DNA of 64,000 nucleotides, taken from the NCBI GenBank assembly GCA_002898315.1, contig BEHV01000001.1:196620-260619 (forward strand). Direction: 5' to 3'. Origin of the DNA: a bacterium HR19. Lineage in GTDB: Bacteria > Calescibacteriota > Calescibacteriia > Calescibacteriales > Calescibacteriaceae. Below are positions 46,581 through 59,602 of the stretch, in pieces. Under the pieces are notes generated by a model. That model saw nothing but the letters and a program-made list of their open reading frames with translations. It did not search any database and was not told the origin of the DNA. Numbering within the stretch: the stretch's first letter is position 1; every line of letters starts with the position of its first letter. A program made the position numbers and the translations under genes.

Positions 46581-47885
46581 ATGGCTATAAATGCCCTGCA
46601 AATAGATTGCAGATTCTTAGATGCTCTATCAGATGCCATACTCATATACGATAAGGATTTGACTATACTCTACGCATCCGGACCAGCTGCGGAAATTCTC
46701 GGAATTGAAAGAGAAACTCTTATGCTCAAAAACTGCAAAGATATTTTCGGAGAGGACTTCTCAGATGAAATTCAACCTCATTCAATACTTGAAATAAAAA
46801 CAGATGGAAGCAAAAGAAAAGTAAAAGTCACGAAAATAGTAACGCCAGATAACTTCAACATACTCATAATATCGCCCGGTCCAGTGATAGAAAATCAAGA
46901 TATTCTTGAAGGTATTGTGGGAGTGAGCAAAAAGATGAAAGAGGTTTTTGAACTTATAAAAATAGCTGCTAGGTCAGACGCTCCTACGCTTATAACAGGA
47001 GAGACAGGAACTGGCAAAGAACTCGTCGCAGAAGCAATTCACAAATTATCCTCCCGGAAAGAAAATCTGCTTGTGAAGATAAATTGCTCCGCCCTCCCTG
47101 AAAACCTCCTTGAAAGTGAGCTTTTCGGATACAAAAAAGGCGCATTCACAGGAGCAGATAAAGATAAACCCGGAAAATTTGAGATAGCTAATAGTGGAAC
47201 TTTATTCCTTGATGAAATCGGAGACCTACCGCTATCACTCCAACCCAAAATACTGCGCGCAGTTGAAAGAGGTGAAATAGAAAAATTAGGAGAAACAAAA
47301 CCAACAAAAGTGAATGTGAGAATAATATCAGCTACAAACAAAGATATAGAAAAAGAAGTGTCAGAAGGTAAATTCAGACCAGACCTATATTTCAGAATAT
47401 CTGTGTTCAGAATCCATATTCCGCCACTGCGCGAGAGAAAAGAAGATATAATTCCTATCGCAGAGCTTGTGCTTGAAAAAATAAGCAAAAAATATGGACT
47501 TGGCAGGAAATTTCTTACAAGAAGAGCAATTGAAGAGCTTATGGAGTGGGATTATCCCGGAAATGTAAGAGAACTTGAAAACATCATTGAAAGAGCTTAC
47601 TTTATGTCAAAAACAAAAAACATGAACGAAGACGTAATACGCGAACACAAAAAACTCTCAAAAGCAATAACAAATAACAACCTAAATAATGAAACAAATG
47701 GAAAAGAAGAAAAAAACATAGAAAGTATATCAGATAAATTAAAATCAAAATCTGAAATTGAGAAAGAAAAGATTTTAGAATCGCTCATAAAACATGGCTC
47801 AATATCAAAAGCAGCAAAAGAACTTAATATGAGCAGAGTCACAATATGGCGAAAGATGAAAAAATACGGAATAGAATGGAAATAA
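46581..47885 (+). CDS. Sigma-54-dependent transcriptional activator with an N-terminal PAS-like sensor (no receiver domain)
   Basis: GETGTGKE Walker A, ELFGYKKGAFTGA, a C-terminal HTH (AAKELNMSRVTIWRKMKKYGI), and a PAS-like ~110-aa N-terminal region. Confidence 0.85.
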   Translation: MAINALQIDCRFLDALSDAILIYDKDLTILYASGPAAEILGIERETLMLKNCKDIFGEDFSDEIQPHSILEIKTDGSKRKVKVTKIVTPDNFNILIISPGPVIENQDILEGIVGVSKKMKEVFELIKIAARSDAPTLITGETGTGKELVAEAIHKLSSRKENLLVKINCSALPENLLESELFGYKKGAFTGADKDKPGKFEIANSGTLFLDEIGDLPLSLQPKILRAVERGEIEKLGETKPTKVNVRIISATNKDIEKEVSEGKFRPDLYFRISVFRIHIPPLRERKEDIIPIAELVLEKISKKYGLGRKFLTRRAIEELMEWDYPGNVRELENIIERAYFMSKTKNMNEDVIREHKKLSKAITNNNLNNETNGKEEKNIESISDKLKSKSEIEKEKILESLIKHGSISKAAKELNMSRVTIWRKMKKYGIEWK

Positions 47886-47969: not shown

Positions 47970-49628
47970 ATGAAAAAACTCACTATAATGCTTTTCTCTC
48001 TTGCTCTTTTCACATATTGCGGACAAAAAACTGAAAAGAAAGTTGAATTGAATTTCTCAGGAGGAATATGTGTAAGTTTATCAAGTATAAGTATCTCAAC
48101 AGTAGAATCAGAAGGAGGACGGAAATTTATAATAAGTTGTGGGACAACAGCTGGTCAGATATCTCAAAATGCAGTTATAGCCTTCTTTTCCGACGGAGAA
48201 ATCTCAATAATCCCAATAGAAAATAATTCTCTCAATATAAATAAAAAAGTTGTTCTAATATCATCAAAAATCTTTCTCTCAAAAGAAGGAGTTGTATTAT
48301 CAACTTACTCATCACAGGGAAACGACCTTTTTATTTTCAAAAACCAGAATTTCCAGAAAGCAGATATATCTATTTCAACATTCATAAAAAACGATTCAAA
48401 CATCATGAAGCTTTTTTCCGAAATCTTTTCATCACAAATTGGAGTTCCAGAATCATCACTTCAATCAAAAGATGTGGTCATAATCTCAACTTATCTTGAT
48501 ACTAACAACCTTTCCTATTTTATATTTCCTATATTTGAAGAAACACTTTTTTTGTTCCAGAAAAATTTCAAGGTAAGAGATATAAAACTTGTTTTTCCTT
48601 CTGGATTATCTGGCGACTCAATAATTTCAGTATCATCTCAACCTGAAATAACTTTATTTCAACCCATACTTTTTCCCGTCGCTTCGGAGTACAACCTTTC
48701 AGAAATTTCTTACCTATCTCAGGATAGATACTATTACGAAAAAAATCTGACAGAAAGTCCAATAAGCATACCTATTTTTCTATCGCAAGCATCAGAAAAA
48801 ACATTTCTTTTCTCTGTATCAAAAGAGAGCGGATACTTTTTCAAGGGGGAGATAAACCCATCTAATCAAAACACAGTTGAAATGGTGCCACTTCCACCAA
48901 AAGAAGGAGATCTGAACACAACCATAAACTTTGATCTTCAAGAAGAAAACACAAAAGACATTTTTGATGTTGAAATCTTTTCTGAACTTTCTGGTTCCCT
49001 TTTCAACCTCATTCAAAAGTCAAAAGTAGACTATCTAAATCCTCACATAAAACTATACGCACCGAAAGATATTTTATACTCATCGCAATACATAGTAAAG
49101 ATTCAAACAGAAAGGAAAGAAGAAGATGATAAATTCGTAAAGAGAGAAAGGTTGATAAAGTACGAGGTCAGCGAATCACCATTTGTAAGGTATTCTCTCA
49201 AAAACTTCAAATACGAAAACTTCGTATTCGGGATCAAAGAGATAGGAGAAGACAAGATTTCACTTTTCTGGCGGGTTCCTGAAAAATTAGATGTAGCTGA
49301 GCTTGGTTTATCTCAGCTTGAAGTTTCAAGTTTATCTTTTGCAAACTGCATAACTGAGCAAGGTAATCAAACATTCATAAAGAAAGAATGCTTTACTCCA
49401 CAGATACACATATTGGCAGAAGGAGAAAACGGAACTCAGATTGTATGGAGAGTTTTCAACCTTTACCAGAGGAGCGAAGCACAAATTCCCAACCTTTTAT
49501 CTCCTCAGAGGTTCTACGAAATAACAGGAAGCGCACCTAAAATAAAAATAAAATCTATAAAACTACACTTTGCTTTATACACAGGCACAAAACTTTTCAT
49601 ATATGAAAGGTCTCTTGAACCAAAATGA
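47970..49628 (+). CDS. Hypothetical large lipoprotein (552 aa), Ser/Ile-rich
   Basis: Signal peptide plus lipobox (LFTYCG). No identifiable domain. Immediately downstream of the PAS/sigma-54 activator. Confidence 0.45.
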   Translation: MKKLTIMLFSLALFTYCGQKTEKKVELNFSGGICVSLSSISISTVESEGGRKFIISCGTTAGQISQNAVIAFFSDGEISIIPIENNSLNINKKVVLISSKIFLSKEGVVLSTYSSQGNDLFIFKNQNFQKADISISTFIKNDSNIMKLFSEIFSSQIGVPESSLQSKDVVIISTYLDTNNLSYFIFPIFEETLFLFQKNFKVRDIKLVFPSGLSGDSIISVSSQPEITLFQPILFPVASEYNLSEISYLSQDRYYYEKNLTESPISIPIFLSQASEKTFLFSVSKESGYFFKGEINPSNQNTVEMVPLPPKEGDLNTTINFDLQEENTKDIFDVEIFSELSGSLFNLIQKSKVDYLNPHIKLYAPKDILYSSQYIVKIQTERKEEDDKFVKRERLIKYEVSESPFVRYSLKNFKYENFVFGIKEIGEDKISLFWRVPEKLDVAELGLSQLEVSSLSFANCITEQGNQTFIKKECFTPQIHILAEGENGTQIVWRVFNLYQRSEAQIPNLLSPQRFYEITGSAPKIKIKSIKLHFALYTGTKLFIYERSLEPK

Positions 49629-52655: not shown

Positions 52656-53303
52656 TCAAATTCTTATTCCTTCTTGTTTTATGACATCTTGTATCCACTT
52701 TTTCAAAACATCATATTTTTGAGCACCTACCAATCTATGTTTTCCAGAAGCAACAAGAGTTGGGACTCCTGTTATTGCGTAATCTTCGGCTTTTTGAAGG
52801 TCCTGAATTAAAAGTTCAAGAGTTGATCTATCTGTAAAGGCATCTATCCATTTTTTCAGGTCAAGCCCTACATCTTTTGCACAAAGAAGAAGGACCTCAA
52901 AATCGGCTATATTCAGACACTCTGTAAGATGAGCTTTCTGGATTCTATCAAAAATATCCCAGTGTGCATCTTGACCTCCGATAACCTCAGCAGCTTTACA
53001 AGCTATAAGACCAGGGAGAGAATAAGGGTAGTCAAACTCTCTTTTTTCCATAAGGTCAGCGTTTATTCTGTGTTCGTCATCGTTCTGGTTTGCAGCACGC
53101 CAGTGAGATAGAATCTCTTTCTTACCATTTTCTTTTGAGCCAAATATCTGCTCTATTGATTCAGGAGTAGGAGCAAGAGCAAACGCCCTATGAACAACCT
53201 TTATAGGAAACTCACTTGCCAACCTCCTCACTCTTGGAGAAATAGCATAACACCAAGCACAAAGAACATCATGAAAAAACTCCACCTCTATATAGTTTTG
53301 CAT
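52656..53303 (-). CDS. DsbA-family thiol-disulfide oxidoreductase (FrnE-like)
   Basis: Thioredoxin-fold CxxC at FHDVLCAWCY, and DsbA-like length. Confidence 0.7.
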   Translation of the reverse strand: MQNYIEVEFFHDVLCAWCYAISPRVRRLASEFPIKVVHRAFALAPTPESIEQIFGSKENGKKEILSHWRAANQNDDEHRINADLMEKREFDYPYSLPGLIACKAAEVIGGQDAHWDIFDRIQKAHLTECLNIADFEVLLLCAKDVGLDLKKWIDAFTDRSTLELLIQDLQKAEDYAITGVPTLVASGKHRLVGAQKYDVLKKWIQDVIKQEGIRI

Positions 53304-53369: not shown

Positions 53370-55385
53370 TCAGAAATCAATATCGTAAGCAAATTGATAT
53401 AGAGCTAAAATTGAGCTGGCAACTGTCCATCCCGTAGCAGATGTTATATTGAACTCCCCTTTCCCACCATAACCATAATCCCACCATGTCTGCTGAATCA
53501 CCTCTGGAACCACACCGTAAGGAACTCCTTTTATGCTCCCCTCGGAAGAAGGAATTAAAAAAGATACAGCGTTTATCATCATGGAAACCATTTCTTGCAA
53601 TCTTTTTTTCTCCGGTTCTTGTAGGTATTTTGAGAAGTTCAGGACCATTTTCGGGAAGAAAAAGAGATATACATCTACATGGATGTTTTCAACGCTGACG
53701 CTTGAAAGTCCAAGAGTATTTAGATTGATTTTGGAAAATGTTTGAGATGGCTCAAACGGAACAGACCAGAGATAAAACCACCACAAAGATGAGTATAAAG
53801 AGCGTTTTGCACATGAAAAATACTTCTCATACCCCAGCTCTCTCAAAAGCATAAAGCATGATATAAAAGCCCATATTGATGCTTCTTTATCTTCACTGTT
53901 TGCGTCTATTGTTGAGCCGAAATATGAAAAATTCTCTACAAGACGAGATATAAAATCTCCAGCTCTCATAGCAGATTTTAAAAATCTCTCTTCCCCTGTT
54001 ATCTCATAAGCTTTGAGAAAAACCGGGACAGCAAATAATGTCCCAGCAGGAGAAGAATCATATACCCTACCGGAGAAACTATATGCTCTTGCAAAAGAAC
54101 CATCTTCTTGTTGTAGTTCAAGCATGGCTCTCGCACCAGATAAAAATTCATCTTTGAATAAATCTGTGTAGCTTTCGTCGTATTTATGAGCAAGATAAAA
54201 GGCAAGAAGCGACTCAAACTCTCTGCGAGTATAAAAAACATCTTTCAAAAATACAGGTGGAAGATTGCAAGGAGATTGAGAAGAAGGGTCAAAGCAATCT
54301 ATGAAGAACTTATTTATTTTACCATTTTTAGACCATGAAATCAAAACCTTCCTACCTTTTTCAATCAATATATCATCACCGAATTTTTTTCCAAGAAGTA
54401 TAGCGTTCGCTCCGTTCATAAGTGCCATTCCTGTAAAGCTTGATTCAATAAAAGGTACAAAAACATCTCCTGTCTCAAGAACAATAAAGGAGTAAAAACC
54501 AGCTATCTTATCTCCTTCATAGTAGTATCTCTGGAAAAAATGCTTCAGATTCCCAAGAAGGTTTATAAGTTTTGATTTATTCTCAATCACAGGAGATAAA
54601 GGGGGAGAAAAAACAGAGTTCTCTTTATATATGTCATAGACCAGTTCCCAAAGGTAACAAATCGCATCAGAGAAATTGTATCCGCTAATTTCTATAACAT
54701 AAAAAGTAATCTTTTTTTCGCCTTTGTAGAACGCTTTTTTATGGTTGAGCTGAACAAAATTGGTCAAAAATTTTCTCCTGTAAAAAATAGGATATTCTTC
54801 AAACGGAAAAACAATAAGTATCTGCTTTTTATCATAATCAAAACCGAGAGAAGATACATCTGTATCAACTATTATATTTTCGTCAGAAGAATCAATGTGT
54901 TCAGCTCTGGTGAAATCATATTTTGCAGGAATTTTCAAGATAGCCACACCTTCTTTTCTATTCTCATCAAAAGCAAAGACAAGAGGAACTGGCATTCTAT
55001 CTTCTCTGAAAAGCCACATCTTTGACCTCAAAATAGAATAAACTTTATCTTGAGAGAAGTTGTTTCCTTTTATCCAGATGCCGGGGACAAAAAATGTTAT
55101 ATGCTCGGAATAACCGGTGTTGAAAGCAATTGAGATAGAGGTAGGGAAATCTGACTTCAAATCACCCGAAACTTTCCATATCTTCAAATTTTCACTTTCT
55201 TTTTGTTTAGAAACTTCAAGGGAAAAATTTGCTGATTTTTTTTCTGATGGGTAAGGTTTCTCAGAAACTTCAAATCTTTTGAGAAAATCAACACTTTCTT
55301 TTACTTCTCTGAATATATCGCATCCCTGAAAAACGAACACAAACAAAAGTGTGAAAAATATTTTAGGTTCATGACGGAGAAGCAT
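53370..55385 (-). CDS. Hypothetical large lipoprotein (671 aa), third gene of the GH5 operon
   Basis: Signal peptide plus lipobox (VFQGCD). No identifiable catalytic motifs. Co-directional and tightly spaced with the upstream genes. Confidence 0.4.
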   Translation of the reverse strand: MLLRHEPKIFFTLLFVFVFQGCDIFREVKESVDFLKRFEVSEKPYPSEKKSANFSLEVSKQKESENLKIWKVSGDLKSDFPTSISIAFNTGYSEHITFFVPGIWIKGNNFSQDKVYSILRSKMWLFREDRMPVPLVFAFDENRKEGVAILKIPAKYDFTRAEHIDSSDENIIVDTDVSSLGFDYDKKQILIVFPFEEYPIFYRRKFLTNFVQLNHKKAFYKGEKKITFYVIEISGYNFSDAICYLWELVYDIYKENSVFSPPLSPVIENKSKLINLLGNLKHFFQRYYYEGDKIAGFYSFIVLETGDVFVPFIESSFTGMALMNGANAILLGKKFGDDILIEKGRKVLISWSKNGKINKFFIDCFDPSSQSPCNLPPVFLKDVFYTRREFESLLAFYLAHKYDESYTDLFKDEFLSGARAMLELQQEDGSFARAYSFSGRVYDSSPAGTLFAVPVFLKAYEITGEERFLKSAMRAGDFISRLVENFSYFGSTIDANSEDKEASIWAFISCFMLLRELGYEKYFSCAKRSLYSSLWWFYLWSVPFEPSQTFSKINLNTLGLSSVSVENIHVDVYLFFFPKMVLNFSKYLQEPEKKRLQEMVSMMINAVSFLIPSSEGSIKGVPYGVVPEVIQQTWWDYGYGGKGEFNITSATGWTVASSILALYQFAYDIDF

Positions 55386-55398
55386 AAGAAAAAATTAA

Positions 55399-56799
55399 TC
55401 AGAAGAAAAATTTGAGAGAAAATTCAGCGGAGTATACGAGAAGACGAAGGGCGCCTGCTGGATTGATTCTACTCGTAAAACTCACCGAAGCTCTTCCCGG
55501 AACAAAAAATATATTCCCGAAATCAAATCTCATGTCTTGCCCGAGCATATAACTGAAAATCAAATCTCCCTCTAAACCTATAAAGTTTGATTTCAGAGAG
55601 TTCTCACCAGATAGAGTCAGTCCCACACCTAAAACCGGGGTGATTTTGAAATTCTCTCCAAAAGGTAATTCAAACCACACATCAGGAACGAAAAATCCAG
55701 CTCTCATCAATCTGAACTGAGAGAAAACTTCAGCCATATTAAGGTCAAGATTATCTGACTTGAAGATGATTTCGTCTTCTGTGAGAAGCAGAGTTCTGCT
55801 CATTGATTTTCCTGAGTACAGGAAACCGAAATTAACTCCGTCTCTGTATGAGGGGTTATCTGGGCTGAGGAGCATCAGGTCTGCTCCGAATTTGCTTTTA
55901 CCTTTTTTTGCTAATGATAGCTGAAAAGCACCGGCAAGATGAAGTTCGTTTTCAAGACCGAAAGAGCTTTTTGTCAGAACTCCACCCTGCCCCGCCACTC
56001 CCCCTACAAAATAAAAATTATCTGAATCAAAAAGATAGCCAACTACAAGAGTTGAAACGAAAGAAGGTTTTCTCACAACCGAATTATCAAAAAGGTTGTA
56101 TATTCCTCCGAAGAAACCTTTGCCAGCAAAAGGAATTGTATCTCTTCTTGAAAATCCTCCTTCCGCATAAGCTAGGGAGAAGATGTAAGTATCGTTTATA
56201 AAGTTATTTGCAAAAAGCTCAATGCCTTCGTATGTCTGATCTGGAATCTGACCAAAGAACAACTGTAAATTCTCTTTTTCAAACCTAACTCCTCCAATCC
56301 AGTGTCTCACGAAAATTGCTATAGGGTCAGAGAAATATTGGTATCCGGCTTTCACATTAAATCCAGATAAAATGAGGTCGGAGTACAGCTGTCTGGCGAA
56401 AATGAAAATCTGTCTTCCAGCTTGGGCATCCGGTCTGCCGATATTGAAGTTCCTGCTCCATATATTAAATCCCAAAAGGAATTCAAGTGCAAAGAGTTTA
56501 TTCTCTCCTGAGATGAAGGAGAATTTTGGTTCTGCGTATGTTCCGAGAACGCCAGCGGTCTGTCCCCACGGCTCATAAAATGACGGAGTTCTCTCAAAAT
56601 CTCTATCTGTTTTGAAAATCAGGAAGTTCTGAAAATAACCCGAAAAATCAAATTTCTTCTCATCAGTCAAACCATCAGAAGAATAGAAAGTCAGAACAAA
56701 AGAGAGAAGTAAAATCTCTATCCAAAACGGTTTACTTCTTGTTTTCTCGTTCAATTTTGCTATGTGTTTTTTTTCTCCGTCCATCATAATCACCCCCAC
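55399..56799 (-). CDS. Predicted outer-membrane beta-barrel protein (porin/FadL-like)
   Basis: N-terminal signal/anchor, amphipathic beta-strand periodicity throughout, and a C-terminal ...SLKFFF with terminal Phe, the classic OMP sorting signature. Confidence 0.55.
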   Translation of the reverse strand: MGVIMMDGEKKHIAKLNEKTRSKPFWIEILLLSFVLTFYSSDGLTDEKKFDFSGYFQNFLIFKTDRDFERTPSFYEPWGQTAGVLGTYAEPKFSFISGENKLFALEFLLGFNIWSRNFNIGRPDAQAGRQIFIFARQLYSDLILSGFNVKAGYQYFSDPIAIFVRHWIGGVRFEKENLQLFFGQIPDQTYEGIELFANNFINDTYIFSLAYAEGGFSRRDTIPFAGKGFFGGIYNLFDNSVVRKPSFVSTLVVGYLFDSDNFYFVGGVAGQGGVLTKSSFGLENELHLAGAFQLSLAKKGKSKFGADLMLLSPDNPSYRDGVNFGFLYSGKSMSRTLLLTEDEIIFKSDNLDLNMAEVFSQFRLMRAGFFVPDVWFELPFGENFKITPVLGVGLTLSGENSLKSNFIGLEGDLIFSYMLGQDMRFDFGNIFFVPGRASVSFTSRINPAGALRLLVYSAEFSLKFFF

Positions 56800-56822
56800 T
56801 TAACTAAAAAGTTAAAAAATCT

Positions 56823-59513
56823 TTATTTTTTCTTTCTTGATATTATAACATCTTCCTTTACAAAGTAGTCCCAATCATCAAACGGTTCTCCTTTTCCACC
56901 AGATATTATCGGACCCCTTATAATTATTTTGTGTGTAAATCCCGGCTGGTCTGCGGTATTATACCAGTATAATCTGAAATTCTTGTGATCATACATAATA
57001 TAACCATCAGATACCCAAACGAAAAATCCATCAGGATAGTATATGTAGTATGGTATGAAAATCTCTGTTGGCTCATCGGTTTCTTTGCTCTCGTATTCAA
57101 GAAGGAACTCTCCGACAGGATTCAAAATTCCCTTATCTGGGTCAAAGTAGTGATATTTTGTGAAAAACCTCATAGATTTCGGTTTGCCTGCTAAAAATCT
57201 CGGGTATGGACGTGAATAAATCTCGTATCCTCTTGGCACAAGATATGTTTTTTCATCTATCTTGGCTATGTACGGGTCTCCCTCGCAGGTTGGGGATTTT
57301 ATACCTTTGCAGTTTTCAGCAGGAACTGGCTCAACAATAGAGAAGTTCTCTGCATTCCATCCTTCTCCTCTCCAATCATTATTCTCCCACGACCAGCACC
57401 AGAGAATCCTTGATTGAAAGAGTTCATCTAACGCCTCGTAGTAATCGTTAAGAATGAATTTAGGTATTATAAAGTTCTCATTCCTTGCGTTCATAACCGC
57501 ACCTTGCCAGATGTTATCAACTTCAACCTCACTCTCCCCTGCTCTGATTCTATATTTTCCGCCAGAGAAATACACATCTGTTGTTGAGAGAGAAAAGTAA
57601 GTCCCGAATTCACCAAGCACAGCGGGAATACTTCCCATATACTTTCTCGCCGAAGAAATCATGCCATATATTGAATTTTTATATTCGCTTGCTTTTCTTC
57701 TTTTCTCGGAAACCTTGAAAACCCTATAAGGAGAGTTAAAGCCGGGGAACGGATATATATCTGCATACCAATGAGGAGCATAAACAACCTGAACCAAATC
57801 AGGTCTAAAATATGGGAGGTCAAAGTAAGTTTCGCTCTGACTGCCTCCTGTAACGAAGTTCAAAAGCGCTTCAATAGAAGATATTGTAGGTTCAACAAAA
57901 ATTATAGCGTCTTTATCTTCTTCTTGAATTGCTTTGCCCATCCTTTCGTGGAAAGGCAGTAGATAATTTCTGTTGAAAGCATAGTTCAATCCGAGTATAG
58001 CTAAAAGGTTCGCCTTGTCAAATCCCCAAATTCTTTTTATATCTTCTCTGTTTTTTTCTTCAACGGGTGGTAAAATTCCAACGCCTGTAAGAATATCAAC
58101 AAGGTCTTCTGAAAACTGCTTATCAGCGAAAATTGTGTTGAGTATATTCACAACTCCTTCTTTTGAACCCAATTGCAAGTATGCCGCTGCAAGGGTTAAG
58201 ATAAGGAAAAACCCCGATGGTTCATTCATAAGGTCGTATCCTAAAACATTCGGATAATCTTTAACTCTTTTTGCTATCTCTCTCCACATTCTCTCGTATG
58301 CAGATTGAAGATATTCTTGAATGTTTTTATTACCCACCTTGAGTCCCGGATAAGCATCTTTTCCTGCAAAAAACGCAGCCCACGCTCTCTGAACATCTAA
58401 TGAGGTTATAACATCTACACCCCAGTTTGTGAAAGGAAGCATATCTGTTGTATTTTTTATTATCTCTTCGTCAGAAAGACCAGTTATAGGAACAGGGAAG
58501 TTCTTGAGACCTTCTCCCAAAAAGTTCAGAATAAAATCACGAACAGTATAATTTCCTTTATCATCTTTTCCACCCAGTAGTTCTCCTATATTTTTGTCAA
58601 ACTTTTTTGCAACTCTGACTATTTTTTCCCAGTTCTGATTATCTCTTATGAAGTTGTAGAGGAAGAAAACTATTCTTGGATAACCCCAGAGAGGGGAATC
58701 AAGGTTTCTTTCAGGGAATATAGCTTGAACAGCCCATTTAGGGAACATATTACCTCTAACAGCATTATTGTAAGGTGAATCTATATCTTTTCCCATGCAC
58801 TTATTTTTTCCGGGATTTGGCACAAGAGCCCCGATAAGTTCCGCTATTGGCAACACCCCTCCAAGTCCTCCCATTCCACCTGAACCTACGCTCAGAAAAC
58901 CTCTTATTTGTTTTACGATTGGAGATTCAGTATCGTTGAAACGAGAGATAAAAAATCTTGAAAAAACCGCATCTGTGTGAGAGTCAAGAAGAACATAAAT
59001 ATCGTATTCCCATGCTTTCTCAACAATTTTGGCTATGTAGTCAAGGTATTGTGTATCTATTTTATCTGGACTTTCTGGCATCACTCCCTCAAATGAGATG
59101 ATAAGCCTTATTGAGTTGAACCCGAGGTTTTTTATTTGTCTGAAGTAATCATCTGCTTTGTCAAGAGGGAACGGCTTGCCGACATAGGTTGGAACTCCAT
59201 TAACCTTGAAAGTGCAAGGGTCCTCATTCACAGGGAATTTATTGCTACCTGATACATTTACTCCGTGTAAAAAAACATACCTTCCCTTTTGGTCTTTTAT
59301 ATACGGAAGCCAATCAACGCAAAATTCTTTGTAATTTTCTGGCGGAGGGCAGTAAGGTCTCCCATCTTGTCCAACACAGCATACAGAAACCCTTGATAAT
59401 CTCTGATTTTTATATTCTCTTTTACCGCAACTGTGAAGGGAAAAAAGCGAAGTAGCCAGAGCTATAATTATGATTTTTCTATAATTTTTTCCCATAATTT
59501 TTTCAGTTATCAT
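56823..59513 (-). CDS. Glycoside hydrolase family 5 lipoprotein (896 aa, multi-domain)
   Basis: Lipobox LHSCG. The GH5 catalytic signatures are the acid/base ...YDLMNEPSGF (NEP) and the nucleophile ...VLGEFGTYF (GEFG), with the His/Tyr context (LLDSHTD, HWY). Confidence 0.6.
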   Translation of the reverse strand: MITEKIMGKNYRKIIIIALATSLFSLHSCGKREYKNQRLSRVSVCCVGQDGRPYCPPPENYKEFCVDWLPYIKDQKGRYVFLHGVNVSGSNKFPVNEDPCTFKVNGVPTYVGKPFPLDKADDYFRQIKNLGFNSIRLIISFEGVMPESPDKIDTQYLDYIAKIVEKAWEYDIYVLLDSHTDAVFSRFFISRFNDTESPIVKQIRGFLSVGSGGMGGLGGVLPIAELIGALVPNPGKNKCMGKDIDSPYNNAVRGNMFPKWAVQAIFPERNLDSPLWGYPRIVFFLYNFIRDNQNWEKIVRVAKKFDKNIGELLGGKDDKGNYTVRDFILNFLGEGLKNFPVPITGLSDEEIIKNTTDMLPFTNWGVDVITSLDVQRAWAAFFAGKDAYPGLKVGNKNIQEYLQSAYERMWREIAKRVKDYPNVLGYDLMNEPSGFFLILTLAAAYLQLGSKEGVVNILNTIFADKQFSEDLVDILTGVGILPPVEEKNREDIKRIWGFDKANLLAILGLNYAFNRNYLLPFHERMGKAIQEEDKDAIIFVEPTISSIEALLNFVTGGSQSETYFDLPYFRPDLVQVVYAPHWYADIYPFPGFNSPYRVFKVSEKRRKASEYKNSIYGMISSARKYMGSIPAVLGEFGTYFSLSTTDVYFSGGKYRIRAGESEVEVDNIWQGAVMNARNENFIIPKFILNDYYEALDELFQSRILWCWSWENNDWRGEGWNAENFSIVEPVPAENCKGIKSPTCEGDPYIAKIDEKTYLVPRGYEIYSRPYPRFLAGKPKSMRFFTKYHYFDPDKGILNPVGEFLLEYESKETDEPTEIFIPYYIYYPDGFFVWVSDGYIMYDHKNFRLYWYNTADQPGFTHKIIIRGPIISGGKGEPFDDWDYFVKEDVIISRKKK

Positions 59514-59602
59514 TTTTTACGAATTTTAGCAATTTTTTTGTAAGTTATCATCTTTTTTCGGTAAGCTCGGAAAAAGCAAAAAAAGGATTTATGATTATTT
59601 GA

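What the first reader, a model, noticed from the sequence alone, without database searches (positions are those of the whole stretch)
53370..59513. Three-gene surface glycan-utilisation-like operon: lipoprotein GH5 - OM beta-barrel - large lipoprotein of unknown function
An 896-aa lipoprotein carries both GH5 catalytic signatures (NEP at ~res 430, GEFG at ~res 630) with unusually long inserts and an extra C-terminal region. It is followed 23 nt later by a beta-barrel with a terminal Phe, and then 13 nt later by a 671-aa lipoprotein with no recognisable domain. This resembles a PUL-like capture/degrade/import module outside Bacteroidota. The third protein is a candidate novel glycan-binding or hydrolase component.
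Basis: partly seen in the sequence, partly recalled or inferred. Interest (0 to 1): 0.6.

Follow-up and report, generated by a model that had tools for sequence, protein, structure and literature searches.

The report
Glycosidase, outer-membrane channel, unknown enzyme cluster
A hot-spring bacterium carries a three-gene cluster (a lipid-anchored sugar-cleaving enzyme of the glycolipid-hydrolase type, a new outer-membrane channel and an uncharacterised enzyme-like protein); the first two genes turn out to be a fixed pair in many unrelated bacteria, most likely a sugar-scavenging module that nobody has described.

Summary
Three same-strand ORFs lie at the stated coordinates. ORF1 is a genuine GH5 lipoprotein. 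It has all eight GH5 signature residues (acid/base E431, nucleophile E635) and the GH5_C beta-sandwich. Its closest solved relatives are fungal steryl-beta-glucosidases and endoglycoceramidases. ORF2 is an 18-strand AlgE/OprD/chitoporin-like barrel from a sequence family unknown to Pfam and NCBIfam. ORF3 is a beta-sandwich plus (alpha/alpha)6 toroid. It belongs to a very large family of "hypothetical proteins" that in Bacteroidota sits in PULs next to GH43.

The main new result is that the conserved unit is the GH5-barrel pair, not the triad. The GH5 gene lies directly upstream of the barrel gene in 39 of 42 metagenome/assembly loci with enough flank (GC 32-73%), often with a 4-nt overlap available. 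Seven loci add a Na+/sugar-type symporter. One adds TetR and a second GH5. ORF3 joins the pair only in the Calescibacterium lineage.

The best reading is a TonB-independent import-and-hydrolysis module for beta-glycosides or glycolipid head groups. It is not a Sus-type PUL. Substrate, topology and co-transcription remain inferred. It is a new variant of a known kind, of moderate interest.

The parts
59523..59551 (-). sigma-70-like promoter match (ATGATA-17-TAAAAT with TG) 10 nt upstream of the GH5 start codon
   Evidence: This is only a consensus match; the number of matches in the region is not above the shuffle expectation.
56823..59513 (-). ORF1: 896-aa lipoprotein GH5 retaining beta-glycosidase of the endoglycoceramidase / steryl-beta-glucosidase (GH5_12-like) type
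   Evidence: ORF. PF00150 plus PF18564. Best PDB sequence hits are SglA 8exd (7e-19) and Sgl1 7lpo (4e-18), then EGCase I and II. Conserved R136 H179 N430 E431 H581 Y583 E635 W705.
59427..59513 (-). ORF1 signal peptide and lipobox (…SLFSLHS-C29)
   Evidence: Sequence. A Cys-terminated signal peptide is conserved in homologues, which have canonical lipoboxes in high-GC lineages.
58218..58226 (-). N430-E431-P432, the acid/base motif of ORF1
   Evidence: It aligns with the NEP of Sgl1/SglA (Sgl1 Glu270) (PMC8497620).
57603..57614 (-). G634-E635-F-G637, the nucleophile motif of ORF1
   Evidence: at least 95% conserved. It aligns with the TEIG of SglA.
56922..57212 (-). GH5_C beta-sandwich domain of ORF1 (residues 768-864)
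   Evidence: PF18564, 40.9 bits against a cut-off of 22.
55399..56799 (-). ORF2: approximately 18-strand outer-membrane channel (AlgE/OprD/chitoporin-like fold) from a new sequence family. The likely true start is the ATG at 56787.
   Evidence: No Pfam, NCBIfam or PDB sequence hit.
55735..55824 (-). Most conserved segment of ORF2 (FLYSGKSMSRTLLLTEDEIIFKSDNLDLN, residues 326-355). It lies in the long loop between strands 13 and 14 (inferred extracellular loop 7) and is a candidate constriction or docking loop.
   Evidence: Alignment A2 invariants F326 S329 G330 T336 E341 E343 D352. Loop position from the DSSP assignment on the model. The role is inferred.
53370..55385 (-). ORF3: 671-aa probable lipoprotein with an N-terminal beta-sandwich plus an (alpha/alpha)6 toroid. 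It belongs to a large unannotated six-hairpin-glycosidase-like family.
54681..55274 (-). ORF3 beta-sandwich domain (residues ~38-235), carrying the invariant R130 and E197 and the REDR motif
   Evidence: Model secondary structure. Invariants.
53385..54674 (-). ORF3 (alpha/alpha)6-type helical toroid (residues ~238-667), with invariant R387, D494, E501 and D571 and near-invariant E391, D499, K500 and E628
52656..53303 (-). DsbA-like thioredoxin-fold gene 66 nt downstream on the same strand. It may be co-transcribed; its membership of the module is doubtful.
   Evidence: PF01323, 71 bits. Conserved next to ORF3 only in the closest relative L008. No signal peptide is visible.

Best explanation
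The locus is a TonB-independent module for taking up and hydrolysing beta-glycosides or glycolipid head groups. It sits in an uncultured thermophile related to Candidatus Calescibacterium. Its core is a lipid-anchored retaining GH5 beta-glycosidase of the endoglycoceramidase/steryl-glucosidase clade, encoded immediately upstream of a dedicated 18-strand outer-membrane channel.

Proposed mechanism. The channel carries the substrate, or the sugar or oligosaccharide released at the surface, across the outer membrane. The GH5 cleaves the beta-glycosidic bond between the sugar and a bulky, probably hydrophobic, aglycone or the next sugar. The liberated sugar is then taken up by an inner-membrane transporter. 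That transporter is encoded elsewhere in this genome. In several other lineages it is a Na+/solute symporter encoded right after the channel gene.

ORF3 is a beta-sandwich plus (alpha/alpha)6 enzyme-like lipoprotein added to the pair only in the Calescibacterium lineage. It most likely removes a second linkage or decoration from the same substrate.

Shown: the folds, the catalytic residues, the lipoprotein-type signals and the conserved gene pairing. Inferred: the substrate class, the direction of transport, the side of the outer membrane on which the lipoproteins sit, and co-transcription.
For: GH5 identity and intact active site.

Glycolipid-clade affinity. GH5_C domain. The best NCBIfam hit is endoglycoceramidase I. 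The best solved relatives are SglA and Sgl1, then EGCases. The Sgl1 glucose-binding and catalytic residues Lys47, His142, Asp144 and Glu270 align with K92, H179, D181 and E431 (alignment; residue list from PMC8497620). GH5_12 is known to contain a largely bacterial clade, for which that paper lists no characterised enzyme (PMC3526467).

Barrel fold. The AF2 model has pLDDT 79.9. Foldseek gives AlgE at E 5e-13 and TM 0.56-0.65, followed by OprD/Occ channels and chitoporins.

Pairing. A GH5 homologue lies directly upstream on the same strand in 39 of 42 loci that have at least 1500 nt upstream. These loci span GC 0.32-0.73 and barrel identity of 25-96%. A start codon giving a 4-nt overlap or a gap of under 20 nt is available in most of them. 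The same pairing appears in independent look-ups.

Uptake direction. The gene after the barrel is an SSF Na+/solute symporter in 7 loci. One of these exceeds the NCBIfam PRK10484 cut-off. L120 reads TetR - GH5 - GH5_12-like - barrel - SSF. No glycosyltransferase or other recurrent neighbour was found.

Lipoprotein signals are conserved in GH5 homologues.

ORF3. The fold is typical of CAZymes: PL27, GH94, GH52, GH116 and GH88 among the hits. Carboxylates and arginines are invariant across 40 diverse members. Distant members are fused to NPCBM, ricin-B and T9SS sorting domains. Bacteroidota members sit in PULs, with GH43 neighbours in 52 loci together with SusC/D-sized genes, hybrid two-component regulators, GH2 and BNR proteins. 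ORF3 lies next to the pair in both Calescibacterium subclades, at 52% and 84-88% identity.
Against: No substrate is known for any bacterial member of this GH5 clade.

The window has no transporter, regulator or sugar-catabolic gene next to the cluster; its neighbours are PriA, LipA and ValRS.

The best fold match of the barrel is an exporter (AlgE).

A monoglucoside-type enzyme would release glucose, which hardly needs a dedicated 18-strand channel.

Intact glycolipids are unlikely to diffuse through a water-filled channel, so the order of steps is uncertain.

ORF3 homologues also occur alone in related genomes (L006, L007, L010, L011, L013). In the 52%-identity clade, ORF3 is separated from the barrel by 0.5-1.4 kb.

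The symporter neighbour is present in only 7 loci.
Confidence: 0.55

Rival explanations
1. Exopolysaccharide or envelope-glycan secretion and trimming module. The AlgE-like barrel exports a polymer or glycolipid. The lipoprotein GH5 is the periplasmic trimming hydrolase, as with PgaA/PgaB, AlgE/AlgL and BcsC/BcsZ. ORF3 is a second modifying enzyme.
For: The best structural match of ORF2 is the alginate exporter AlgE. Pairs of a lipoprotein hydrolase and an outer-membrane barrel are typical of synthase-dependent exopolysaccharide systems (established knowledge). There is no inner-membrane importer in the window.
Against: No glycosyltransferase/synthase, TPR scaffold or co-polymerase gene recurs next to the pair in 65 loci. 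ORF2 has no Pfam Alginate_exp hit even at E<=1. Symporter, TetR and extra GH5 neighbours point to catabolism. The GH5 clade is known for glycolipid and aglycone glycosides, not for trimming the producer's own polymer.
Confidence: 0.13
2. Turnover of the cell's own outer-membrane glycolipids. The GH5 removes head groups from endogenous membrane glycolipids. The barrel works as its membrane partner: a platform, a lateral gate or a surface-exposure device for the lipoprotein, in the manner of LptD/LptE or Slam-type barrel-lipoprotein pairs.
For: The closest characterised relatives do quality control and catabolism of the cell's own glycolipids (EGCrP1, EGCrP2/Sgl1). Strict 1:1 gene coupling with translational-coupling-type spacing suggests a stoichiometric complex. 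The most conserved barrel element is a long loop that could dock a partner.
Against: The fold is that of a diffusion or secretion channel, not of known lipoprotein translocators. The symporter neighbours argue for nutrient use. No lipid-biosynthesis genes are linked. No complex prediction could be run.
Confidence: 0.12
3. ORF3 is functionally unrelated to the GH5-barrel pair and is merely adjacent in this lineage. The triad as such is not a unit.
For: ORF3-family genes are absent from all non-Calescibacterium GH5-barrel loci. They occur alone in related genomes. In Bacteroidota they associate with GH43-type PULs, not with GH5_12-like genes. Insertions of 0.5-1.4 kb separate ORF3 from the barrel in the sister clade.
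Against: Same-strand adjacency is kept across lineages only 52% identical in ORF3. The gap is 13 nt here, with no terminator-like site. Both flanking proteins are secreted CAZyme-like lipoproteins.
Confidence: 0.2

Closest known systems
GH5 subfamily 12-type enzymes: Cryptococcus Sgl1/EGCrP2 and Aspergillus SglA steryl-beta-glucosidases, and EGCrP1 glucosylceramidase
   Same: TIM-barrel GH5 with large inserts plus a C-terminal beta-sandwich (GH5_C). These are the best solved sequence relatives (8exd 7e-19, 7lpo 4e-18). The catalytic Glu pair and the -1 subsite residues (K, H, D) are conserved.
   Different: The window protein is bacterial and carries a lipoprotein signal (the fungal enzyme is described as vacuolar in the title of PMC12061408). 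It has an extra ~130-aa insert between residues 187 and 358 and a Cys-rich N-terminal linker. It is encoded with a dedicated outer-membrane channel. Identity is limited to conserved blocks. The aglycone pocket was not examined.
Rhodococcus endoglycoceramidases I and II (GH5_29 / GH5_28)
   Same: Two-domain GH5 plus GH5_C architecture, and glycolipid-directed bacterial enzymes. They are the only NCBIfam hit and are PDB hits at 2e-9 to 1e-6.
   Different: The NCBIfam equivalog score is 74.8 bits against a cut-off of 700. They are much smaller (~480-500 aa), extracellular and actinobacterial, with no barrel partner.
Porin-plus-glycosidase uptake systems: chitoporin ChiP with periplasmic chitinolytic enzymes, and BglH, ScrY or LamB with their operons
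   Same: A substrate-specific, TonB-independent outer-membrane channel is genetically coupled to a glycoside hydrolase and, in some loci, an inner-membrane sugar transporter. Chitoporins are among the structural matches (7vu2, 7vtz).
   Different: There is no sequence relationship. The hydrolase here is a lipoprotein of the glycolipid clade. The pairing is far stricter (39 of 42 loci).
AlgE alginate export barrel
   Same: The best structural match: an 18-strand monomeric barrel, TM 0.56-0.65, E 5e-13.
   Different: About 12% identity. No Alginate_exp Pfam hit. No alginate or exopolysaccharide biosynthesis context.
Bacteroidota polysaccharide utilisation loci (SusC/SusD paradigm)
   Same: A co-localised surface or periplasmic lipoprotein glycosidase plus an outer-membrane transporter. 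The ORF3 family itself is common inside true PULs.
   Different: No SusC-like TonB-dependent transporter, SusD or hybrid two-component sensor is present here. The phylum is different.
PL27 L-rhamnose-alpha-1,4-D-glucuronate lyase BACCELL_00875 and other beta-sandwich plus (alpha/alpha)6 CAZymes (GH94, GH52, GH116)
   Same: ORF3 has the same two-domain architecture and a similar size. PL27 is the top Foldseek hit over the whole length (5no8, E 4.6e-8).
   Different: TM is only 0.44 and identity 9%. There is no sequence-profile link to any solved protein. Only scattered sub-threshold Pfam hits appear across the six-hairpin clan.

Membership tests
Glycoside hydrolase family 5 (clan GH-A) | Match to the family profile above the curated threshold | tested here: met
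   PF00150, 85 bits against a cut-off of 23.5.
Glycoside hydrolase family 5 (clan GH-A) | Eight signature residues (R, H, N-E acid/base, H, Y, E nucleophile, W) | tested here: met
   R136, H179, N430, E431, H581, Y583, E635 and W705 are all at least 95% conserved in 25 homologues.
GH5_12-like / endoglycoceramidase-related clade | C-terminal GH5_C beta-sandwich domain | tested here: met
   PF18564, 40.9 bits against a cut-off of 22. It is also present in partner GH5s of other loci.
GH5_12-like / endoglycoceramidase-related clade | Closest characterised or solved relatives are Sgl1/SglA/EGCrP, with the -1 subsite residues conserved | tested here: met
   (8exd, 7lpo on top). K92, H179, D181 and E431 align with Sgl1 K47, H142, D144 and E270.
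GH5_12-like / endoglycoceramidase-related clade | Formal CAZy/dbCAN subfamily HMM assignment | not testable with these tools
   No dbCAN or CAZy subfamily library is available.
GH5_12-like / endoglycoceramidase-related clade | Hydrolysis of glucosylceramide, steryl glucoside or oligoglycosylceramide | not testable with these tools
   Needs an enzyme assay.
Endoglycoceramidase I (NCBIfam NF051847 equivalog) | Score above the equivalog cut-off | tested here: not met
   74.8 bits against a cut-off of 700; only the N-terminal ~110 residues match.
Sus-type polysaccharide utilisation locus | Adjacent SusC-like TonB-dependent transporter (plug plus 22-strand barrel) and SusD-like lipoprotein | tested here: not met
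   ORF2 and ORF3 have no Plug, TonB_dep_Rec or SusD hits. ORF2 has an 18-strand plug-less fold. ORF3 is a beta-sandwich plus (alpha/alpha)6, not a SusD-type TPR fold.
AlgE / Alginate_exp family | 18-strand barrel fold | tested here: met
   Foldseek 3rbh/4b61, E about 1e-12, TM 0.56-0.65.
AlgE / Alginate_exp family | Sequence-profile membership and an alginate or exopolysaccharide biosynthesis operon context | tested here: not met
   No Pfam hit at E<=1. No recurrent synthase or TPR neighbours in 65 loci.
OprD/Occ and chitoporin channels | Sequence-profile membership | tested here: not met
   No Pfam, NCBIfam or PDB sequence hit. There is fold similarity only.
Bacterial lipoproteins (ORF1, ORF3) | Signal peptide ending in a lipobox with an invariant Cys | tested here: inconclusive
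   A Cys is present and conserved (C29 in ORF1, C22 in ORF3). The lipoboxes LHSC and FQGC are non-canonical, and one close homologue has IFQEC. High-GC ORF1 homologues have canonical lipoboxes. No dedicated predictor was available.
PL27 polysaccharide lyases (for ORF3) | Sequence or close structural similarity to BACCELL_00875 | tested here: not met
   TM 0.44, 9% identity. No profile hit to any PDB sequence of this type.
Six-hairpin glycosidase-like clan (for ORF3) | (alpha/alpha)6 toroid fold with weak profile links to clan members | tested here: met
   Model. Foldseek hits to AGE/cellobiose epimerases, GH88, GH76, GH94 and GH116. Sub-threshold hits of family members to GH127, GH76, Pec_lyase, GlcNAc 2-epimerase and GH88.

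The most novel reading that the evidence does not exclude
The GH5_12-like lipoprotein and its 18-strand barrel form a stoichiometric, TonB-independent outer-membrane machine that is widespread across bacterial phyla. The machine harvests sugar head groups from membrane glycolipids, for example bacterial or archaeal glycolipid debris in hot-spring mats and steryl or ceramide glycosides elsewhere. This would be a new type of lipoprotein-capped channel, functionally parallel to SusCD. ORF3 would found a new glycoside hydrolase or lyase family whose Bacteroidota members are unrecognised PUL enzymes.
Probability: 0.2. Interest if true: 0.75.

Novelty: new variant of a known kind. Interest (0 to 1): 0.55.

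Why it matters
The bacterial branch of the GH5 glycolipid-hydrolase clade has no characterised enzyme listed in the 2012 GH5 classification (PMC3526467). I also found no paper that links such an enzyme to an outer-membrane channel. The near-obligate pairing with a new channel family gives a concrete genetic handle on what these enzymes do. It also defines a two-gene module that can be tested in cultivable carriers.

ORF3 points to a family of thousands of "hypothetical proteins" that sit inside gut Bacteroides and Prevotella PULs next to GH43. This family is a good candidate for a missing CAZyme activity.

For the uncultured Calescibacteriota, the cluster is one of few clues to which extracellular carbon sources they use.

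Tried and rejected
- Sequence searches of ORF2 and ORF3 against Pfam, NCBIfam and PDB gave nothing, even at E up to 1-10.
- A profile of the ORF3 family against PDB sequences gave only a marginal cellobiose 2-epimerase repeat match (E 0.004).
- The word-based homologue search for ORF3 found only 14 proteins and made the family look rare. The genome scan, the exhaustive profile search and a Bacteroides-seeded search showed that this was a sensitivity artefact.
- I considered a Sus-like PUL and rejected it, because there is no TBDT or SusD.
- I considered an alginate-like export system and down-weighted it, because there is no synthase or TPR context and there are symporter neighbours.
- I checked whether the 650-aa gene after the symporter in L120, or any other neighbour of the pair outside the Calescibacterium clade, belongs to the ORF3 family. 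None does.
- The promoter and terminator scans are uninformative beyond the absence of intergenic terminators, since counts are near the shuffle expectation.
- I searched the Segatella copri PUL transcriptome paper for arabinan, GH43 subfamilies and 'unknown function', to get at the substrate of the Bacteroidota ORF3 homologues. The passages returned did not cover that locus.
Full report
**Observation.** The ORF2-ORF3 gap is exactly 13 nt. The ORF1-ORF2 gap is 23 nt only if the GTG is used. The sequence shows GGGGGTGATT followed by ATG ATG at 56787, and the closest homologue starts MMGREKK. The real gap is therefore probably 35 nt. No terminator-like hairpin lies between the genes, and a weak promoter-like match sits just upstream of ORF1. 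The flanks are housekeeping genes: PriA, a methyltransferase and a DsbA-like gene on one side, LipA and ValRS on the other.

**Organism.** ORF3 is 88% identical to a gene of an unnamed MAG. It is 44-52% identical to genes of Candidatus Calescibacterium nevadense and other Calescibacterium MAGs (taxonomy). Window GC is about 36%. The window therefore comes from an uncultured thermophile of the Calescibacteriota (Calescamantes). These organisms are described as heterotrophs of roughly 80 C spring streamer communities (PMC4791363).

**ORF1.** Pfam gives Cellulase/GH5 at 85 bits and the GH5 C-terminal beta-sandwich at 40.9 bits, both above threshold. The only NCBIfam hit is endoglycoceramidase I, far below the equivalog cut-off.
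- Among solved structures the best sequence matches are the fungal steryl-beta-glucosidases SglA (8exd, 7e-19) and Sgl1 (7lpo, 4e-18). Rhodococcus endoglycoceramidases I and II follow, and ordinary cellulases come only after those.
- NEP is at residues 430-432 and GEFG at 634-637. The full GH5 signature (R136, H179, N430, E431, H581, Y583, E635, W705) is at least 95% conserved across 25 divergent homologues.
- In the alignment, K92, H179, D181 and E431 fall on the Sgl1 residues Lys47, His142, Asp144 and Glu270. Mutagenesis showed those residues to bind glucose or to catalyse (PMC8497620).
- The 'long inserts' and the 'extra C-terminal region' are therefore features of this clade, not oddities.
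[quoted passage not shown] The only activities listed for the subfamily are fungal glucosylceramidases and a yeast flavonoid beta-glucosidase (PMC3526467). I could not run a formal subfamily assignment.
- ORF1 begins with a signal peptide ending in LHS-C29. Homologues in high-GC lineages have canonical lipoboxes (LLAGC, LSGC, LTGC and others).

**ORF2.** It has no Pfam, NCBIfam or PDB sequence hit. An AlphaFold2 model built on 18 homologues (pLDDT 79.9, pTM 0.77) is a barrel that I count as 18 strands, with short periplasmic turns.
- Foldseek puts the alginate exporter AlgE first (E 5e-13, TM 0.56-0.65). The 18-strand OprD/Occ channels and chitoporins follow.
- The most conserved segment of the family is FLYSGKSxSRTLLLTEDEIIF... 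(residues 326-355). It lies in the 57-residue loop between strands 13 and 14, which by strand parity is extracellular loop 7.
- By analogy with OprD-type channels, in which loop 7 lines the constriction (my own knowledge), this segment is a candidate selectivity or docking element. This is inference.

**ORF3.** It has no Pfam, NCBIfam or PDB sequence hit.
- The word-limited search found only 14 relatives, but that was misleading. A genome scan found more than 550 relatives, mostly at about 30% identity in Prevotella, Segatella, Bacteroides, Marinoscillum and others. An exhaustive profile search found 1064 cluster representatives. A search seeded with the B. finegoldii homologue found more than 6500 clusters at E<=1e-20. 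Every one of these that carries an NCBI or UniRef name is called 'hypothetical protein'.
- The AF2 model (pLDDT 80.5, pTM 0.86) is an N-terminal beta-sandwich plus an (alpha/alpha)6-type toroid.
- Foldseek's best full-length hit is the PL27 rhamnose-glucuronate lyase BACCELL_00875 (E 4.6e-8, but TM only 0.44 and 9% identity). GH94 phosphorylases, AGE-type epimerases, GH52, GH116, GH88 and GH76 follow.
- A family profile finds no solved relative. Members give only scattered sub-threshold hits across the six-hairpin clan.
- Across 40 diverse members, R130, E197, R387, D494, E501 and D571 are invariant. E128, D129, E391, D499, K500 and E628 are nearly so. This pattern fits an enzyme rather than a mere binding protein.
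- Distant members carry NPCBM, ricin-B and T9SS sorting domains.
- In Bacteroidota the gene sits in PULs. GH43-family neighbours occur in 52 of 74 loci, together with genes sized like SusC, SusD and hybrid two-component sensors, and with SusE, GH2, BNR and FG-GAP proteins.
- The B. finegoldii copy has an ordinary signal peptide. The Calescibacterium-type copies have a Cys at the end of the signal peptide.

**The key comparative result.** ORF3 homologues are found with GH5 and barrel only in the Calescibacterium lineage. This holds in the close group (84-88% identity) and in the 52% group, where 0.5-1.4 kb of small ORFs intervene. Other Calescibacterium-like copies of ORF3 stand alone.

The barrel, by contrast, is almost never without the GH5.
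- A metagenome scan with the barrel profile returned 60 loci. Together with five look-ups, these give 42 loci with at least 1500 nt upstream.
- In 39 of those 42 loci a homologue of ORF1 lies immediately upstream on the same strand. These contigs range from 32% to 73% GC, and barrel identity goes down to 25%.
- In most loci a start codon is available that overlaps the GH5 stop by 4 nt or follows it within 20 nt.
- The exceptions are L092 and L104, which have no GH5, and L107, where a sensor kinase on the opposite strand is inserted.
- No other neighbour is broadly conserved. In 7 loci, however, the next gene is an SSF Na+/solute symporter, and one of these passes the NCBIfam PRK10484 cut-off.
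- L120 reads TetR - a second GH5 - GH5_12-like - barrel - symporter.

**Interpretation.** The conserved core is a lipoprotein GH5 of the glycolipid/aglycone-glycoside clade plus a dedicated, plug-less outer-membrane channel. The symporter, regulator and extra GH5 neighbours, together with the lack of any synthase or TPR partner, favour nutrient uptake over polymer export.
- I therefore read the locus as a TonB-independent import-and-hydrolysis module for a beta-glycoside or a glycolipid head group (confidence 0.55). ORF3 is a lineage-specific second enzyme.
- It is open whether the GH5 works on the surface, with the product entering through the channel, or in the periplasm, with the substrate entering through the channel. 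The substrate itself is also open.
- Rival readings are an AlgE-style secretion and trimming pair (0.13), a barrel-lipoprotein complex for turnover of the cell's own glycolipids (0.12), and, for the triad specifically, mere adjacency of ORF3 (0.2).

**Comparison and novelty.** ORF1 meets the tested criteria for GH5 and for the GH5_C-bearing endoglycoceramidase-related clade, but it is not an EGCase I equivalog. ORF2 shares the AlgE/OprD/ChiP fold but fails sequence membership of each. ORF3 belongs to the six-hairpin clan but to no described family. The cluster is not a Sus-type PUL. Literature searches for GH5_12, for endoglycoceramidase with outer-membrane terms, and for the GH5_C domain found nothing describing this pairing. 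I rate it a new variant of a known kind (channel plus glycosidase uptake operons), with two undescribed protein families attached. Interest is 0.55.

Noticed in passing
window 56784-56799 (minus strand): The GTG start listed for ORF2 is probably wrong. ATG ATG at 56787/56784 is preceded by a GGGGGTGA Shine-Dalgarno-like element, and the closest homologue starts MMGREKK.
   Followed up: yes
window 59319-59381 (ORF1 residues 45-65): There is a Cys-rich linker (C45, C46, C55, C65: VCCVGQDGRPYCPPPENYKEFC) right after the lipobox. It is shared with the low-GC homologue in L088 but absent from the high-GC homologues. A DsbA-like gene lies 66 nt downstream of ORF3.
   Followed up: partly
window 52656-53303 (minus strand): A DsbA-like thioredoxin-fold protein without an obvious signal peptide lies on the same strand as the cluster. 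It is conserved next to ORF3 only in the closest relative (L008). Whether it is co-transcribed is unknown.
   Followed up: partly
L107, L111, L115, L118, L120, L141, L144 and others: GH5 N-termini: High-GC homologues of ORF1 have canonical lipoboxes followed by acidic stretches (for example CSGEKPDLNDGL, CGGDDYEFD, CSESSPDFDDEL). These are reminiscent of the Bacteroidota lipoprotein surface-export signal. This may bear on surface exposure and was not tested.
   Followed up: no
L120 1894-12267: This is a compact operon: TetR - 532-aa GH5 - 886-aa GH5_12-like - barrel - SSF symporter - 650-aa protein with no Pfam hit. It is the most informative context for finding the substrate.
   Followed up: partly
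L095-L101, between barrel and ORF3 (e.g. L098 8282-9690): In the sister Calescibacterium clade, 0.5-1.4 kb carrying small ORFs separates the barrel from ORF3. One of these ORFs has a weak PD-(D/E)XK transposase-like hit. This is possibly a decayed insertion.
   Followed up: partly
window 47970-49628 (plus strand): A 552-aa protein has a lipoprotein-like N-terminus (…LALFTYCGQ) and no Pfam hit. It lies downstream of a sigma-54 activator gene (46581-47885).
   Followed up: no
L014-L087 (Bacteroidota loci): The ORF3 family is a very common, unannotated PUL component next to GH43, BNR_2, FG-GAP and GH2 genes in Prevotella, Segatella and Bacteroides. Some loci carry what look like tandem ~675-aa genes beside it. 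It is a candidate missing CAZyme family in plant-glycan PULs.
   Followed up: partly
L089 959-5638 and L123 172-4539: A ~1500-aa Cys-rich secreted protein with no Pfam hit lies upstream of the GH5-barrel pair. It was seen in only these two loci, whose GH5 and downstream genes also cluster together, so they may be copies of the same organism.
   Followed up: no
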